Positions 4,353-23,620 of a stretch of DNA of 64,000 nt are shown piece after piece. Location of the stretch: contig NC_092388.1 in the NCBI RefSeq assembly GCF_030028105.1, positions 40,802,581-40,866,580 on the forward strand, written 5' to 3'. The position numbers and the translations under genes are program-made. Positions within the stretch are counted from its first letter, which is position 1, and every line of letters begins with the position of its first letter. The notes beneath the pieces are model-generated. The model was not told the DNA's origin and ran no database searches. It saw nothing but the letters and a program-made list of their open reading frames with translations. Origin of the DNA: Mobula birostris. Lineage: Eukaryota.

Positions 4353-4970
4353 TAGAAACATAGAAAATTTACAGCACAATACAAGCCCTTCAGCCCACAA
4401 AGCTGTGCAGAACATGTCCATGCCTTAGAAATTACCTAGGGTTACCCATAGCCCTCTATTTTTCTAAGCTCCATATACCTGTACAGGAATCTCTTAAAAG
4501 ACCCTATCATATCCGCCTCCACCACCGTCGCCAGCAGCCTATTCCACGCACTCACCACTCTCTGCGTAAAAAACCTACCCCTGACATCTCCTCTGTACCT
4601 ACTTCCAAGCACCTTAGGACCGTGCCCTCTCGTGCTAGCCATTCCAGCCCTGGGAAAAAGCCTCTGACTATCCACATGATCAATGCCTCTCATCATCCTA
4701 TACACCTCTATCAGGTCACCTCTCATCCTCCGTCCTCAAGGAAAAAAGGCTGAGTTCTCTCAACCTATTCTCATAAGGCATGCTCCCCAATCCAGGCAAC
4801 ATCCTTGTAAGTCTCCTCTGCATCCTTTCTATAGTTTCCACATCCTTCCTATAGCGAGGCGACCAAAACTGAGCACAGTACTCCAGGTGGACTCTGACCA
4901 AGGTCCTATATAGCTGCAACATTACCTCTCGACTCCTAAACTCAATCCCATGATTGATGAAGGCCAACCA
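4353..4970 (-). mobile_element. CR1 LINE 3' fragment
   Basis: ORFs LYRTLVRVHLEYCAQFWSP and RGDLIEVY..FFTQRVV; (TTTCTATG)-like tail at ~4353. Confidence 0.9.
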
Positions 4971-6369
4971 AGTTTGCTTTTCTAATCACGTGTAAAGAAA
5001 TTCTTGACTATTACTGGACAAAGGCTCCAATTAATAGTGACCACCTAACAATAATGTAAATCAAGTCAATTCTCAAGTGTAGCCAATGTCACAGCTTGTC
5101 ACTTGTGATACATGTCAAATTCTTGATCACTCAACAAATTGCCTGTAGCCACAAGCTCACAAGACAAAAATACTGGAGACATTTTGTTAAGTGATAATTA
5201 GTACCATTCACTAATCATGAATAAGTACAGTACTGTGCAAAAGTCTCAGACATATATTAGTGTCCTGCCTTTTCCCAGCAAATGTTGCCCACTTACTAAC
5301 CAAGAGCCTATCAACCAACGCTTTAAATATACCAAATGACTTGGCCTCCAGAGCTGACCGTGTTGAAAGATCCATTAATACTTATTAACACAGGAAACAG
5401 ATTAAAGCATCTATAACGCTGGAGTTCAAGTTTAAAATTACTACCTTTACAGAAATGGCTGAAGATTAAACCAAAGCTGACTAGGTGTAGTATATGAGAT
5501 TTGTAAAGCAATGAGTGATTGACTATCGGTCAGGTCAGGTGATAATTTAACTCTTTCTAAACTTGTAGCACGTGAGATCTGTGGGTCTGTTAGGGAGAAT
5601 GTCAAGTGGGATTCATAGCTGAATTTTTTTGAAATCCCGGTGTATTGGTTATCTGTAAACATTAATGTACTGTGTAAACCCAAGGAATGTTGTGTGTCAT
5701 AGGCATTGTGAGATTAAGGAATGAGATAAAAAGAAGTGACCATTAAAACATCTGTGTTGAGATGTGCTGATGAATATGTTGTTTGAATGAAAGAAACCAG
5801 ACTGTGTTAATGGGTAAGAACAAAGGATTTTTCTAACTTTTGATCACTCTGCACTTGTGAAACTTGATTCTGTTTAGACCTGTAACTTGGTAAGTGGCAC
5901 TGTACAGCTTATTATGGCTTGGGTAGAAATCACCATTTTATGGATCAGAAACTGGACCCCTGCATCAGTAAGGAAACTGTTCTATACACTTCTGAAATAT
6001 ATGTGGGTGATTCTGGTATTGCGGTGGCAGTGTGACTACCTCACGAGTTTCAGTGGTAAACATCAGGAGAACAGGGAATCCCACCTAACTAGCAGTTCCC
6101 AGAGGTAAAACGGAAAAGGACCTTGGACCAATGGTTAAGGGTCTGCAAGGACTGCCACAACAAAAGGTCCTGGTAACAACTGGGTGGAGTCTGTGGCAAA
6201 TGGAACAAGGTAAAGGCTTTTTGTTCCACTTCCTAGTACATTAGGAGCAGAGGCAGCCTTTAACAGGAAGTTGTAGGAGGGTTGTTGTTCAATGCTGGTG
6301 TGGAACCTTTATTCTTCAAGGCCCCATTGCAACTTTGGACCCTCCAGCCAAGCCGAATGGGTAAGATGC

Positions 6370-6663
6370 TCACAGCTGAGCTGCATAAAGTGACCATCAA
6401 CCCAAATGCTGTTCTGCCCCACAGGGCACAATACCCCCATTCCCTGGAATCAAACGTGGTATGCCCCTGGATAATTGCAAGCTATAAATCCAGATGTGAA
6501 CAATTTTCGTTATGTATTTTACAAAACCCAGGGAAATTTGGTGAAGATGGAGGATCTCATACACCACCCTCTGATGGACTGTTCATGCATTAACAGATGG
6601 ATTTTATAGAATTACCTCCATGTTAAGGATATAAATATATCTGGGTCATTATTGATTTTTTTA
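6370..6663 (+). pseudogene. ERV pol remnants (RT N-terminus joined by a deletion to the integrase N-terminus/core)
   Basis: VTINPNAVLPHRAQYP resembles the retroviral RT start; RCEQFSLCILQNPGK resembles the end of the IN zinc finger; 6594-6659 reads QMDFIELPPC*GYKYIWVIIDF (first catalytic D region of DDE integrase). Confidence 0.75.
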
Positions 6664-6669
6664 TATGAT

Positions 6670-7437
6670 CACAGAATCATAGAAATCTGCAGCATATAGT
6701 CATAGTCATACTTTATTGATCCCAGGGGAAATTGGTTTTCATTACAGTTGCACCATAAATAATTAAATAGTACTAAAACCATAAATAGTTAAATAGCAAT
6801 ATGTGAATTATGCCAGGAAATAAGTCCAGGACCAGCCTATTGGCTCAGGGTGTCTGACCCTTCAAGGGAGGAGTTGTAAAGTTTGATAGCCACAGGCAGG
6901 AATGACTTCCTATGACGCTCTGTGCTGCATCTTGGTGGAATGAGTCTCTGGCTGAATGTACTCCTGTACCCACCCAGTACATTATGTAGTGGATGGGAGA
7001 CATTGTCCAAGATGGCATGCAACTTGGACAGCATCCTCTTTTCAGACACCACCGTCACAGAGTCCAGTTCCATCCCCACAACATCACTGACCTTACGAAT
7101 GAGTTTCTTACAGGCCCTTACGCCAACAATGTTGTGCTGACCATGTTACCTACTCTAGAAACTGCCTAGAATTACCCTACTGCATAGCCCTCTATTTTTC
7201 TAAGCTCCATGTACCTATCTACGAGTCTCTTAAAAGATTGTACCTGCTTCTACCACTGTTGCTGGCAGTGCATTCCACACACCGATCACCTTCTGTGTAA
7301 AAAATCTACCTCTGACATCCCCCTTGTAACTACTTCCAAGCATCTTAAAAATATGCCCCCTCGTATTAGCCATCTCAGCCCTGGGAAAAAGCCCCTGGCT
7401 ATCCACACAATCAATGCCTTTCACCATCTTGTACACC
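6670..7437 (-). mobile_element. CR1 3' fragment inserted in the ERV, itself split by a Rex1 fragment
   Basis: ORF 7230-7439 (RGRFFTQKVIGVWNALP); CR1 tail at 6670-6695 resumes at ~7108. Confidence 0.8.
6697..7107 (-). mobile_element. Rex1/Babar LINE 3' fragment
   Basis: ORF 6837-7079 (ILDNVSHPLH..RHRKSFLPVAIKLYN); short tandem tail (atagtc)n on the + strand. Confidence 0.8.
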
Positions 7438-7439
7438 AT

Positions 7440-8400
7440 TTCTGCTGTGGGTGCTTCCCTTTAATTCCAGCAAATGGGGCTTGGAGTGTAGTTTGGGAAT
7501 GAGGAAAGCCACACTGAAAACTCTGAAGAGTTACAGGACAGACACCAATTGCCATTACAAGTGTTTTAACAGATGGTATGTTTCCCCCTTTAAGCACAAT
7601 TGTTGTAGCCAGATCCCGACATGAAACTGTCTGGCATAATAGCTGAAGGCGCTGATCAGGTTACACATCTGTGCAACTGGAAATGCCGGAGCCCCTGTTT
7701 GAGGAGCAGTATTAGTATATGTATGGACCTGACAAATCTCAGTCTTCCCTGTTCATTGAACAGCATTTACTGGATATGTGGCTACAGTGCCTATCCTGTC
7801 TGCCTGGCATGTCCCCTGACTATGAGGGGAAATGGAGAGAGCCATGAATCTGGAAGGATTGCTGTGATCTTACCCCCATAGTGCCCCATGTTTCACTTGG
7901 CATCACTACCTTACCACCCTCTGGTCTGACAGCACCATAACAGGGGCCAAAAAATACTGGATGATTGCCTTTCTGGGATATGAGACTGCTCGAATGTTCA
8001 GGAAACTGAGCATATGGCATCGGCTTCGGAGAAAATAGCCAATAAAACCGCCTATGCCTTTGATCAAACCCAACAAGGATTAACCAATTTGTCGGCAGAA
8101 CTGATGGCTGTTCGTGCAGTAGCATTACAGAGGACCATGGCTTTGGATTTATTCTATCAGAAAAAGGGATAGAATAAAATCCAAAGCCATGCTGTTCTGT
8201 GTTGCTGTATATAATTAAGATGACAAATCACATTCAAGAAGCTACCAACGAGATTAAGAAAGTGGGGGGTCAGTATCACAGCTATTACACTCCAGAAGTT
8301 GGATGGTGATCATTGAAGATGCCGGGAGGATGACGGGCAACTATTCTACACTATGTTATAACAATTGGCATTATAATAAATTTTGTGTGAAATAACCGGA
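7440..8400 (+). pseudogene. ERV env remnant (SU C-terminus and TM ectodomain)
   Basis: YWICGYSAY (SU motif); a fusion-peptide-like TITGAKKYWMIAFLGY; heptad plus immunosuppressive domain NKTAYAFDQTQQGLTNLSAELMAVRAVALQRTMALD (8041-8148); later hydrophobic ILHYVITIGIIINFV. Confidence 0.75.
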
Positions 8401-8560
8401 CAAAGGAGAGGATATTGAGGAAAGGAATGGGTACTTGTGGCAGTGGATGGATGAAAAGCAAATTTTGGATAAGGCCTTGAAACTGCATCACTGCTTTATA
8501 TACATATATTCATATTTCAATTACCATATTTAATGAAATGTAGTTTTGTCATGAAATGAC

Positions 8561-8979
8561 AAAAAGGAGGGAATGTGGAAAAGTTATTTAAGTTATTTAC
8601 TTGGAGTAGCAAAATGGCACTTTTGTCTGTAACAAAATGGAACCTGTATTGTAGCAGAGTGCTTTGCTAATAGTGTTTGTGCAACATTATGCCGATGGAC
8701 CTTGAGTATATGACAAACTATAGAAAGACAATCAGAAGCGTTACTGGAAGAATGCCAAATACACTGCAAATGGAATGCACCCCGACCTTGAACTGGTGCA
8801 CAGCAGCCAACACATGGGTATAAAGGAGTGACTATGCTGTCCGTTTTTTTCTCAAAGCTATCAGCAGCTCCTGTGGTGCTAGCTTTCCCTTGCTGCAAGT
8901 AAAATAAACGTGCTTATAATTGATCCACTCTGAGTTAGTTATTGTTTTGTTATAAGATATAATGAAAAGGTGCTCAACA
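8561..8979 (+). repeat. Polypurine tract plus 3' LTR of the ERV
   Basis: PPT AAAAAGGAGGGAA 8561-8573, TG start at 8574, TATAAA 8819-8824, AATAAA 8903-8908, CA end at 8979. Confidence 0.75.
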
Positions 8980-9085
8980 GAACTTGGAGATCCCTCTGAG
9001 GCCCATATCAGAATCAGGTTTATCATCACACACGTGCCATGATTTTTTTTTACAGTAGTACAGTGAATTACATAAAATGACTAGA

Positions 9086-9144
9086 ATACTGTGCAAATGT
9101 TTTAGGCTCCCTAGCTATATGTGCCTAAGACTTTTGCACAGTAT
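9086..9144. mobile_element. Tc1-type TIR-only mini hairpin
   Basis: atactgtgcaaatgtttaggc..gcctaagacttttgcacagtat inverted repeat; a single related TIR (cagtactgtgcaaaagtc) lies at ~5228. Confidence 0.6.
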
Positions 9145-12100
9145 TGTAAACAGTGCCACTCAAATCAGCAGGCAAGAAGGGGAGACAATCAAACCGCAGA
9201 ATTCTGTTTTGGAAGCTACCAATCTCATATTGATGAGAAGCCAGTATCAAATTCTATTGATCCAAAAATTGGGAAGTTTGAATTATTTTGAATTCATTTT
9301 ATAAGATCTGGGCATTCCTGGCATGGTCATCTTTTATTACCCACACCTAACTACCAATGATAAGGTAATAATGGGCTGCCTTCTTGAACTACTCTGGAAC
9401 TTCTGATGAAAGAACCACACTGACAGAGTTTGATTGGTTCCCTAGTGAGAAAGTCACAAACAAGAGGACAATTCCTTTAAACTAAAGTGCATTGACATTT
9501 AATCTCAGAGGCCATTGAATTTCTGGATTTTTTTTTACCCCCGAGGATGATGGAGGAAAGATTATTAGTTATACTTAAGGTCAAGAAAGATAACTATTTG
9601 AAAGATCAAGAAATTGAGACATAGGAAACACAGGGGTTGAGGCTAGCATAGATCATATTGAATAATTTGGCACACATGAAAGCCCTGGTGGCCTATTCCT
9701 GCTCTGATTTTCTTGTCTTCTAGGATTTACAATTATAATTATGATATTATAATTAAGCAATGCAAATTGATGGCAGTGCCTGTGACCTTTACCATACTTG
9801 GTTGTAGAGGTCAATGGCGGGAGGCGACATTGTTGTCATCCAGCTGTGTAGTTGATATATATTGTATCTATTTGGCTCTGTGCAGGGAATGAATATTTAA
9901 ATAACATGTTGCCAATCAAATGGGGTGCTTTGCCCTGGATAACATTAAGCTTCACTTGAGCTATGAATAGCAAACTCATCTAGGCAAATGGAGAGTATTC
10001 CATCTCTTGCATCTTGTCTATAATGGAAAGGATTTTTGGATATTAGGAGGCTTTTCCTTGTATACCTCAATCCACTGATGTGATGAATTGATTTGTATGG
10101 ATGGCATGCTAAATAACATTTATTCATTACACCTCCCATTTAGGAGGCAAGTTAATCATTGCAGGATACCCAGCCTCTGTACTTTTAGTCGCGGTATGTA
10201 AGACTGGTCCAGCTGAGCTTCCCATTAATGTGGGACTCAGTGACAGTAATGCTTGAATGTCAAGGATAAGTGCTAAGCCTCCCTTTTGTTTGGGAATATT
10301 CCATGCCTGATGTCTTTGTGGCATAAATGTTACCTATCACTTACAAGGACATATCTCAATATTGTGTACGTCTTGCTGCTTGCTGACATGACTATTTAAT
10401 TTGCTGAATTGCAAATTAACAGAACATTGTACAATCATAAAACATCCCCACATCTGATTTTACAATGGAAGGAACATCTTTGAAACAGCAGCTAAAGATT
10501 GTAATATCCAAGGCATTGCTCAAAAAAAGTCAGTGATGATGGATCTGGGTTGATTGATGTCCAGCAACTCCAGACATCTTTTCTTGTGCAAAATACAAGT
10601 TCAACCACTAGAGTGCATCTCCCATTTGGCACTCAGGGCTTCAATTTTACCAATGCTCCTTGATAATTAATCAAATGCTACAAAGTGATGAACAAAGTCA
10701 TCAATTGCGCCATCAAGTGACATACTAATCAATAACTTGGTCACTGATGACCCATTTAGGCTTATTTAGAATCAGTCCACTCCAGACCTCATAGACCAGA
10801 GAGCTGAATTCCAGAGTTGAGAATAACTGCCTTTGATATCACTACTGACGACTCCTTTCATTATTCCGCCAATGACTGAGAAGACCAATTTGACAAATAA
10901 TTAACCAGACTGGATCTGTCCTATGTTTTGTGAACAGGACATATCTGGGCAATTTTCCACATTGCAGGGCAGATTTCAGCACTGCATTAGTATTGAAAAA
11001 TGATGGAATGGCTTGATTACGTTGCTAATTTGAAGAGTAGTCTTCAGCACTTACAATGGGATGTTATTTGGTCTTACAGCCATTACTGTATCTATCAAAT
11101 TCACCCATTTTTTCCCAACAGAAGTTGATGTACATTAAACTTTAACTAAAAATTATTCTGACAAGTGAAGATTCAGAAAATAATCTCCATTTTAAAGTAC
11201 ATCTGAGTTAAGCTAATTATATTTACCTCATTAGTCATTATTAAACAAAAAGATTGTGCAGGTCAGAAAGCACCTGCACAAAGAGAAACAGACCAAATGC
11301 TTCTACTTAATGATGCTTCATTTCTAACTTTTCCCAGTACTGATTTAACAATTCATCAGGAAAGGGATAAGGAAAGGGAAAAGGAAGGGCTGCGATAAGA
11401 GTGCAGACCCGGAGAAATTGAATTACAATTAATGATAGCATCAGCTGAAAGTGAAAATAAACCCTAATGCATGGTATCTTGAACTAGAAAACTACAAATG
11501 CTAAATCCTTGTTCTGGAGGGTGTAGGATTAAACCCAGCAACTACAGGGCAATTTAACAGCAGTGGTAGGGCAAATTCTAGAGAATAATTAGAGAGAGAA
11601 ATAGCAGAAGATGGGAAATGTCAAGAATGACTACTTGATATCGCTGTATTTCACGACGATCCCTAGAGGCAGTAACACGTCATTCAGAAGATGTGGTGCT
11701 ATATTCTTCCAGCATACTTTGAGCTTTGTTGGAACAATGCAGCAGGTTAGAGAGACAGAAGTCAAAGGAGAAATGGGAATTACCTTACAGGGCAGTGAAA
11801 TCATCTTGGAATTGGCACCAACATAGTGAATAGGATTGCGTTACCCAATATTTACTATTCTACAAGATCAATTTTGGTCATAGCCTATCATTCTTTGGCC
11901 AAATTTCATCAGTACCCTCTTAACTAAAAAAAGTTTGAAAAATGATGTGCGATCCATTTCGGTTTATAGTACATTAAAGTGCACAATCTGACTCCCCCCT
12001 AATTATGTTAACTGAATTAACTGTACAGCAGCATCCCCTTTTTTCATTTCATTAAGGAAAATCAATAATTAGGGCAAACATGTTTCTACAACACTTCAAT

Positions 12101-22699: not shown

Positions 22700-23620
22700 C
22701 ACCCCATAATTTAGTAAGCAGAATCATGAAGTGACAAGAACCATGCGGCAAGGTCCGCTGCCTGGTCTTTGTTTTGCAGCATTACCCAGAAACGAGGACG
22801 CCGAGCGCCGACCTGGAGAAGCACATTTTGGGATTTGGGGGCCACGGTTCGGAGGGGCGGAGACCCCCTGCCATGAACCAGGGAGAGATTCTGGCCAGGA
22901 ATGAGAAAGGCGGAATGGTGGGGTTGCCTTGGTGAGGTTTTGCCATTAACGTGACAGCAACAGGGATGGGGCTCGGGTGAGTGAAGAGAAGACGTATATG
23001 GAAGGGCCCGGTAAACAAGGGTACCACGGAACCGGCAGCCGTGACGCAGCAAGTGGCTACAGCATGGCTAAACCTGACCGGGAACACCCGGGTGAAACAC
23101 GATGTGAGAAAATCAATCAGACCGCACCCGCCCAGCCCGGGACAACTCACAAAATTATCCCTGAAGTCGCTGTCTGGGCACAGGACATAGAAAGAAACGC
23201 CGGGATCCGCGTAGAAATCCAGGCGGCTCTCGGCCTCTTCAGTGGCGATGAGCTCGAACGGGGTGTTGTAGCACCATTTGTCCGCGATGTCGACGAACTG
23301 CTGGAATTCCATGGCCGCCGGATCTCCGGTGCGGGCGCGCGTCCTCCGTTACCTCAGCCGCGACCTCGCCCGCCGCATCAGTCTAGAATGGAGCGCGGCC
23401 CACGGAGCGCACCGCGCTTTTGTTTTATTTCTCTCGCGGCTCGTCGCTCGCCTTGTGGCGCACTTCCGCCTTCCCGACGGCTTGCAGCCGACTGCCTCCC
23501 CCCTCCCCCCAGTCCCGAGCGCTCGTTCCTTCCCCGAGCCCAAACCCAAGCGCGGGAGAGGGCGGGTATACTGGTGCGTGCTGCGCAAAGTAACCTGCAA
23601 GCATGAGTACAGCCTGGGGC
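22700..23620. promoter_or_regulatory. CpG island / MTURN promoter
   Basis: Dense CpG in an otherwise CpG-depleted background; ETS-like cacttccgc at ~23461; GC boxes. Confidence 0.8.
23151..23312 (-). CDS. MTURN: Maturin, coding exon 1 (later exons not found in this window)
   Basis: MEFQQFVDIADKWCYNTPFELIATEEAESRLDFYADPGVSFYVLCPDSDFRDNF matches the vertebrate maturin N-terminus; strong Kozak gcggccATGG; GTGAGT donor at 23150. Confidence 0.93.

What the first reader, a model, noticed from the sequence alone, without database searches (positions are those of the whole stretch)
5650..8979. Hidden class I endogenous retrovirus remnant, largely invisible in the ORF track
Seen: an RT-start-like peptide, integrase QMDFIELPPC*GYKY..IIDF, env YWICG..AY, a heptad plus immunosuppressive-domain peptide (AVALQRTMALD), a PPT and a TG..CA LTR, all in proviral order on + (antisense to MTURN). 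Known: an ISD-bearing env with this integrase signature marks gamma/epsilon-like retroviruses. Inference: it may be a poorly characterised chondrichthyan ERV lineage, since fragmented by CR1 and Rex1 insertions and large pol deletions.
Basis: partly seen in the sequence, partly recalled or inferred. Interest (0 to 1): 0.7.

Follow-up and report, generated by a model that had tools for sequence, protein, structure and literature searches.

The report
Old defective retrovirus family in ray
This is a dead, broken copy of an old retrovirus family, sitting in an intron of what is likely a ray or shark genome; most copies of the family share the same deletions, so they likely spread by borrowing enzymes from complete relatives, and they carry the remnant of a domain predicted to fold like the enzyme CNPase, as already reported for fish retroviruses.

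Summary
The remnant is real. Window 5863-9002 is one decayed copy of a multi-copy class I endogenous retrovirus family (LTR: 512 candidates, 76-82% identity), antisense in intron 1 of MTURN. The window copy alone hits no Pfam retroviral family; paralogues hit rve, RVT_1, RNase H-like and, weakly, TLV_coat, and their RT is closest to MLV-type RT. The pol deletion is not private decay: 38 of 40 scored loci span the same RT-to-integrase junction, against 9 loci that keep RT. Shared NC/protease and env deletions also occur, and integrase codon positions diverge evenly. This fits a non-autonomous subfamily copied in trans. LTR pairs differ by about 21%, so the family is old, and related species share this insertion. 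Trees make it its own class I branch, unplaced. Epsilon-like shark ERVs, CNPase domains in fish ERVs and trans-complemented ERVs are published, and this scan noted the CNPase-like domain before on other shark and ray DNA. New member of a known kind; modest interest.

The parts
5863..6260 (+). Remnant of a CNPase-like (2H phosphoesterase) domain that lies between protease and RT in pol; HxT motifs at 5898 and 6082; broken by stops and frameshifts
   Evidence: Profile of 77 natural homologues gives its two best window hits at 5892-6050 (10.7 bits) and 6089-6157 (3.7 bits); reversed-frame control best -3.1; paralogue L076 34.9 bits. Fold of a natural relative from another ERV family matches CNPase
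6261..6445 (+). N-terminal stub of reverse transcriptase
   Evidence: tblastn 6318-6452 to RT of another ERV family, E 0.003; DNA collinear with RT-keeping paralogue L021
6440..6455 (+). Shared pol deletion junction (most of RT, RNase H and the first half of the integrase zinc finger gone); this copy lost about 30 further bases here
   Evidence: Anchor gap 5-46 in 16 of 17 loci, 3296 in L021, 15 in the window; 38 of 40 scored loci span it
6449..6665 (+). Integrase remnant: end of zinc finger and start of core; rest of the core lost at the LINE inserts
   Evidence: tblastn E 1.5e-8; paralogues hit Integrase_H2C2 and rve
6666..7106 (-). Inserted 3' fragment of a very-high-copy LINE (Rex1/Babar-like label recalled)
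   Evidence: Summed contig depth above 1e6 in run X6 against about 1e2 for the ERV parts; absent from paralogues at this place
7108..7437 (-). Inserted 3' fragment of a CR1-like LINE (label recalled)
   Evidence: 76% to another copy at window 4380-4706; 58% to a LINE-type ORF next to an RVT_1 ORF
7445..8400 (+). env remnant: 3' part of SU and TM with heptad, immunosuppressive domain and membrane anchor; many stops and frameshifts
   Evidence: Motifs; 67-75% to 40 other scored loci; paralogue L057 hits TLV_coat E 7.8e-4, below cut-off
8121..8206 (.). Inverted duplication private to this insertion, replacing about 40 bases just after the immunosuppressive domain; downstream the copy reads like the short-TM variant
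   Evidence: Arms 8121-8150 and 8177-8206, 83% complementary; paralogues match on both sides but not across 8169-8208
8561..8573 (+). Polypurine tract
   Evidence: Sequence; same tract precedes 3' LTRs of paralogues
8574..8979 (+). LTR, TG..CA, 406 bases
   Evidence: 40 scored of 512 candidates, 76-82% identity; ends defined by paired LTRs
8985..9002 (+). tRNA-Gln primer-binding site directly after the LTR, so this LTR was shared with a second, now lost internal region
   Evidence: 12 of 18 letters match the site expected from a genomic tRNA-Gln gene; best paralogue 16 of 18
23151..23303 (-). Host MTURN coding exon 1 (context; the element lies in the intron that follows it)
   Evidence: PF15167 positions 1-54, E 1.2e-16

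Best explanation
The window holds a dead, neutrally decaying copy of an old class I endogenous retrovirus, of a deleted form that is the majority of its family and was likely copied by enzymes borrowed from complete relatives. Shown: the parts and their order; the same RT-to-integrase junction in most copies; a second shared deletion of nucleocapsid and protease start; a third, about 16 bases, in the TM cysteine motif; paired LTRs, 4-base target duplications and a tRNA-Gln primer site on deleted copies; a minority of copies that keep RT. Inferred: a deleted RNA arose once by a reverse-transcriptase template switch, kept its LTRs, primer site, purine tract and packaging leader, was packaged by Gag-Pol from helper proviruses and integrated many times; co-packaging let the env deletion recombine between deleted and RT-keeping forms. 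Later this copy lost its 5' part, took two LINE inserts and a fold-back duplication. The ancestral virus likely made a CNPase-like phosphodiesterase as part of Pol, predicted to open 2',3'-cyclic phosphate RNA ends; untested, and dead in this copy.
For: Junction: 16 of 17 loci with both anchors; among 39 loci picked by LTR, env or integrase, 17 deleted, 4 keep RT, 18 undetermined; genome-wide 38 of 40 scored loci (95 candidates) span the junction against 9 loci holding family RT at 71% or more (19 candidates, all scored). Breakpoints coincide to within a 4-base overlap in L133 and L136. NC/protease deletion: gap 1-41 in 14 of 16 loci, 575 in L021, 321 in one; it goes with the RT state in 18 of 18 loci typed for both. 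TM gap 44-52 in 20 and 59-66 in 12 of 36 loci, 4 other; all four RT-by-TM combinations occur (keep/long 2, keep/short 2, deleted/long 5, deleted/short 11). Integrase differences by codon position are flat within the family (0.174, 0.167, 0.160) while the sister family shows third-position excess (0.205, 0.203, 0.388). Target duplications of 4 bases with at most one mismatch in 5 of 7 loci whose ends the script found correctly, none for 5 or 6 bases. Star-like env tree. The domain.
Against: LTR pairs do not show deleted copies to be younger than RT-keeping ones (median K2P 0.215, n=12, against 0.235, n=3). The env tree neither groups nor separates short-TM copies (6 changes, 72 of 500 shuffles as low), so one origin of that lesion is not shown. 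L032 has a different left breakpoint and keeps NC, and L133 and L136 keep more of the protease, so the lesions are not perfectly uniform. The CNPase-like stretch shows a mild third-position excess (0.221, 0.196, 0.255; one reference copy, not independent). The window's own match to the domain profile is weak (10.7 bits), and the fold was predicted for a relative from another family, not for this one. The window copy has no LTR pair, so its age is borrowed from the family. Searches score only top candidates, so counts are floors and 18 of 39 loci were untyped.
Confidence: 0.8

Rival explanations
1. Ordinary decay: each provirus integrated complete by reinfection and lost the same pol stretch afterwards through a short repeat hotspot.
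For: A 4-base overlap lies at the junction; L032 has another breakpoint; the TM deletion does not map to one clade.
Against: Dozens of loci share one breakpoint of a multi-kilobase deletion and a second, linked deletion; no third-position excess in integrase or TM, which reinfection should leave.
Confidence: 0.07
2. The deleted copies spread passively at DNA level (segmental duplication, gene conversion or carriage by another element).
For: Three of 23 primer-site-bearing LTRs, the window's among them, also have a purine tract upstream, which shows DNA-level tandem or recombined structures; L074 and L080 form a close pair.
Against: Flanks differ between loci and deleted copies carry their own near-matching 4-base target duplications; copies lie on many contigs.
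Confidence: 0.06
3. The window copy, or the retained env, integrase or CNPase-like parts, serve the host (domesticated gene or regulatory LTR in MTURN).
For: The insertion is kept in related species and lies antisense in an intron, the tolerated orientation (recalled).
Against: Every frame is broken; no codon-position signal against paralogues; divergence from organism D inside the element (6.5-7.6%) is like that of its flanks (6.3-7.2%).
Confidence: 0.04
4. It is an env-bearing Ty3/gypsy-type retrotransposon rather than a retrovirus.
For: Integrase of a related family matches foamy and Ty3 chains best in PDB; no Gag_p30 hit in the leader.
Against: RT is about 30 orders of magnitude closer to MLV-type RT; related integrases carry MLVIN_C; gamma-type TM motifs. 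No MLV integrase core appeared among the 60 rows shown.
Confidence: 0.02

Closest known systems
CNPase-encoding epsilon-like ERVs of ray-finned fish (Basta et al. 2009, not held; as summarised in PMC4977317) and 2H domains of fish retroviruses (Mazumder et al. 2002, not held; as cited in PMC9503650)
   Same: Class I pol with a two-histidine domain between protease and RT; homologous architecture in Danio, pipefish, tilapia, skate and stingray proteins; predicted fold closest to CNPase, Z 15.2 against 7.5 for the next chain.
   Different: Likely cartilaginous-fish host; forms its own branch apart from the teleost domain-bearing clades in integrase and RT trees; dead and mostly deleted.
Elephant shark CmiERV lineages II and III (PMC4422223)
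   Same: Epsilon-like ERVs in a cartilaginous fish.
   Different: Their LTR pairs differ by 0.024-0.033, this family's by about 0.21; the one Callorhinchus integrase in the tree falls in another clade. CmiERV sequences themselves were not compared.
Epsilonretroviruses WDSV and WEHV1
   Same: Fish-associated class I retroviruses; their Env models hold the same fold (TM 0.69 and 0.72).
   Different: The domain profile does not hit WEHV1 Pol; the family is outside the starred clade holding WEHV1; primer is tRNA-Gln (WDSV uses tRNA-His, recalled); accessory genes not tested.
Trans-complemented defective ERV subfamilies: bovine ERVK[2-1-LTR] D-type, mouse ETn/MusD and IAP I-delta-1, RecKoRV (PMC10924933)
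   Same: Defective form outnumbers the competent form; four-haplotype pattern points to recombination between co-packaged RNAs.
   Different: Those are young or active and mammalian; this one is long extinct, and is made by deletions rather than by a swapped central segment.

Membership tests
Class I ERV | LTRs with TG..CA ends, primer-binding site, polypurine tract | tested here: met
Class I ERV | RT closer to gamma/epsilon than to other retroviruses or Ty3 | tested here: met
   Paralogue L050, E 4.7e-38 against 1.1e-7; the window keeps only an RT stub
Class I ERV | Gamma-type TM: immunosuppressive domain followed by CX6CC | tested here: met
   Literal CX6CC in one frame in 4 of 37 paralogues, decayed or deleted in the rest and in the window; TLV_coat below cut-off in L057
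Class I ERV | Retroviral integrase (zinc finger plus rve core) | tested here: met
   rve 44.2 bits over cut-off 32.6 in L068; Integrase_H2C2 over cut-off in L021
Class I ERV | gag with capsid and one CCHC knuckle, then protease | tested here: inconclusive
   zf-CCHC E 0.0045, below cut-off, in L021 only; no capsid Pfam hit in 4 loci read in 3 frames; weak tblastn to proteases
Class I ERV | 4-base target-site duplication (typical of gamma-type integrases, recalled) | tested here: met
   At most one mismatch in 5 of 7 correctly bounded loci; 4 further loci were mis-bounded by the script and dropped
Epsilonretrovirus genus (WDSV, WEHV) | Pol clade with the walleye viruses | tested here: inconclusive
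   Outside the starred 14-row clade with WEHV1, but deep forks are weak and only one named virus was on hand
Epsilonretrovirus genus (WDSV, WEHV) | Accessory genes (retroviral cyclin and others) | not tested
   Copies too decayed; full-length paralogues span 8-9 kb with inserts, which leaves little room
Gammaretrovirus-like clade (Jin of PMC6001957) | Pol nested among amniote gamma-like viruses | tested here: inconclusive
   Family clade (100/100) lies outside the rodent, primate and snake clade (99/92) in the integrase tree, on an open fork; PMC6001957 reports that clade only from amniotes
CNPase-bearing epsilon-like fish ERVs | 2H domain between protease and RT with two HxT motifs | tested here: met
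   the second motif reads in 14 of 20 paralogues and the first in 4 of 20
CNPase-bearing epsilon-like fish ERVs | CNPase-like fold | tested here: met
   Shown for a natural relative of another family (pLDDT 92) and carried over by profile match
CNPase-bearing epsilon-like fish ERVs | Phosphodiesterase activity | not testable with these tools
   No assay; none found in the papers read
Non-autonomous, trans-complemented ERV subfamily | Many separately integrated copies share inactivating lesions while helper-type copies exist | tested here: met
Non-autonomous, trans-complemented ERV subfamily | No purifying selection among defective copies | tested here: met
   Flat codon positions in integrase and TM, with the sister family as positive control

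The most novel reading that the evidence does not exclude
A deep, so far unplaced class I retroviral lineage invaded ray or shark germ lines well over 100 million years ago, carried a CNPase-like enzyme in Pol, and was overtaken by a triply deleted parasite form that recombined with its helper: one of the oldest readable records of a defective ERV outcompeting its helper, outside mammals.
Probability: 0.3. Interest if true: 0.55.

Novelty: new member of a known kind. Interest (0 to 1): 0.3.

Why it matters
ERVs of sharks and rays are thinly described. This family adds a distinct class I branch with a tRNA-Gln primer and a CNPase-like Pol domain, and shows that trans-complemented defective forms dominated an old fish ERV burst as they do in mammals. 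Because the insertion is shared between species, such loci could help calibrate the slow elasmobranch clock. The locus itself does nothing that I could detect.

Tried and rejected
Pfam scans of the window's own pieces: no retroviral family. Integrase searches in phages, PDB with the decayed L021 piece and viral contigs: nothing. A first tRNA pattern was mis-recalled and found nothing; the corrected one found tRNA-Gln genes. Single-sequence fold failed (pLDDT 40). I first read window 6141-6180 as a nucleocapsid knuckle; rejected, since the knuckle lies further 5' in L021 and this stretch is part of the CNPase-like domain. I first took the env hairpin for a family trait; rejected, it is private to this insertion. 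Window 5650-5862 is not part of the element. No RNA holder listed, which says nothing on expression. TLV_coat search of the genome used a strict first look and returned other, younger families only. Basta 2009 and Mazumder 2002 are not held. Paper searches for this lineage showed no description of it among the rows listed; subscription papers, Dfam and Repbase were not searched, and no supplements were read, so a repeat-library entry or a supplementary table may already hold it.
Full report
Observation. The element begins at about 5863, where matches to other copies start, and ends with an LTR at 8574-8979 followed by a primer-binding site at 8985-9002. There is no second LTR in the window. 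MTURN coding exon 1 lies at window 23151-23303 on the minus strand and exons 2 and 3 lie left of the window, so the element is antisense in intron 1. The window copy alone hits no retroviral Pfam family (0 of 8 pieces; 0 of 8 frames), but its integrase and RT stubs match other ERV families of the same genome.

The family. The LTR has 512 candidate matches, 40 scored, at 76-82% identity apart from itself; the env stretch matches 40 other scored loci at 67-80%. I fetched 43 loci around such hits; 39 are this family and 4 a sister family with partial LTR similarity. Paralogues supply what the window lacks: Integrase_H2C2 and rve, RVT_1 and the RNase H-like connection, a weak zinc knuckle and protease traces in L021, and a weak TLV_coat hit. 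All pieces that I translated carry stops or frameshifts. RT of L050 is closest to MLV-type RT (E 4.7e-38) and far from foamy or Ty3 RT. The primer site matches tRNA-Gln: genomic tRNA-Gln genes were found and 12 of 32 motif hits lie within 6 mismatches of the expected 18 letters, the rest being 3' LTRs, false hits or sites with indels. Target duplications are 4 bases: at most one mismatch in 5 of 7 correctly bounded loci, 4 of 11 dropped for wrong bounds.

Shared lesions. The RT start is joined to the middle of the integrase zinc finger in 16 of 17 loci with both anchors. Among the 39 loci picked by LTR, env or integrase, 17 are deleted, 4 keep RT and 18 could not be typed. Genome-wide, 38 of 40 scored loci (95 candidates) span the junction, while family RT DNA is found at 9 loci. 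A second deletion of about 540 bases removes nucleocapsid and the protease start in 14 of 16 loci and goes with the RT state in 18 of 18 loci typed for both. A third shortens TM by about 16 bases at the cysteine motif in 20 of 36 loci, 12 being long and 4 other. All four combinations of RT state and TM length occur, the pattern that PMC10924933 (abstract and passages read) uses to show recombination between co-packaged competent and defective RNAs in cattle. Differences among copies are flat across codon positions in integrase and TM, whereas the sister family shows third-position excess. Against a tidy picture: L032 has another left breakpoint, L133 and L136 keep more protease; the env tree is star-like and does not show one origin for the short TM; the CNPase-like stretch has a mild third-position excess; deleted copies are not measurably younger.

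The missed domain. Between protease and RT the family has about 190 extra codons with two HxT motifs, at window 5898 and 6082. A younger ERV family of the same genome has the stretch in open frame. It has 171 homologues, many inside protease-RT polyproteins of teleosts and a stingray (5 teleost and 1 stingray cluster named of 10 looked up). Folded with 77 sequences it gives pLDDT 92 and matches CNPase best (Foldseek E 6.9e-6; Z 15.2, rmsd 2.7 over 152 residues, next 7.5). A profile of these homologues puts its two best window hits on 5892-6157 and scores paralogue L076 at 34.9 bits. Among viral models it matches an unnamed 1072-residue entry and the Env polyproteins of WEHV1 and WDSV. The domain is published for fish ERVs (PMC4977317 and PMC9503650, passages read; the primary papers were not held) and this scan noted it three times on other shark and ray DNA; I had reached it before that look-up.

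Placement. In the integrase tree the family plus sister family form a clade at 100/100, apart from the other ERV families of the genome, the teleost domain-bearing clade and the amniote gamma-like clade, on an open fork (63 rows). In the RT tree two copies form their own branch outside the clade with WEHV1, with weak deep support (53 rows). Epsilon-like in the wide sense is the best label, since PMC6001957 (passages read) finds gamma-like viruses only in amniotes and PMC4422223 (first of two parts read) finds epsilon-like lineages in elephant shark; genus membership is not shown.

Age. Nineteen LTR pairs differ by a median K2P of 0.21 (0.17 without CpG-type sites; range 0.15-0.29). With the mammalian rate quoted in PMC4422223 this is about 40-50 million years; with the tenfold slower shark rate assumed there it is about 390-480 million, which seems too old; PMC10587355 (abstract and passages read) confirms a low per-generation rate in one shark. 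So the age is bracketed only widely. The window insertion itself is shared: organism C holds it at about 98% with contigs across the LINE-env junction and the hairpin, and organism D holds 6 of 8 listed pieces at about 93%, one running from the LTR into the 3' flank. LTR-pair divergence is thus roughly three times the A-D divergence.

History of this copy (inferred). It integrated as the deleted, short-TM form. Its LTR has a purine tract before and a primer site after it, as in 2 other of 23 primer-bearing LTRs, so it was once part of a tandem or permuted structure; the 5' LTR and leader are gone. Two LINE fragments replaced the integrase core and the env start, and a fold-back duplication replaced about 40 bases of TM. 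Nothing suggests a host function.

Verdict. Real, correctly read as class I, and better described as a copy of an old non-autonomous subfamily with a CNPase-like domain. I found no description of this lineage in the paper searches made (listings and abstracts, plus PMC10699275 passages), but repeat libraries and supplements were not checked. Each of its notable traits is known elsewhere. New member of a known kind, interest 0.3.

Noticed in passing
BFVD matches of model m310b0104c701: The CNPase-like fold that sits in Pol here matches the Env polyproteins of WEHV1 and WDSV, while the profile misses WEHV1 Pol: the domain seems to have moved between genes or been captured twice.
   Followed up: partly
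L104-L123 and the hit lists: The genome holds several other, much younger class I ERV families with long open frames in pol and env; at least four integrase clades, most with the same 2H domain.
   Followed up: partly
L084, L085, L086, L088: A sister family with partly similar LTRs and third-position-biased divergence from this family.
   Followed up: partly
L075 and L063: LTRs with a purine tract upstream and a primer site downstream, as in the window: tandem proviruses sharing an LTR.
   Followed up: partly
window 5220-5257 and 9076-9148: Short inverted-repeat elements with matching ends, high copy in related runs; look like Tc1-type miniature elements (label recalled).
   Followed up: no
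G000:C34:23.79-24.62 Mb: About ten integrase hits of another ERV family cluster within 0.8 Mb, suggesting tandem or segmental amplification.
   Followed up: no
window 23151-23303 and beyond the left edge: MTURN intron 1 is about 41 kb long and rich in LINE fragments.
   Followed up: no
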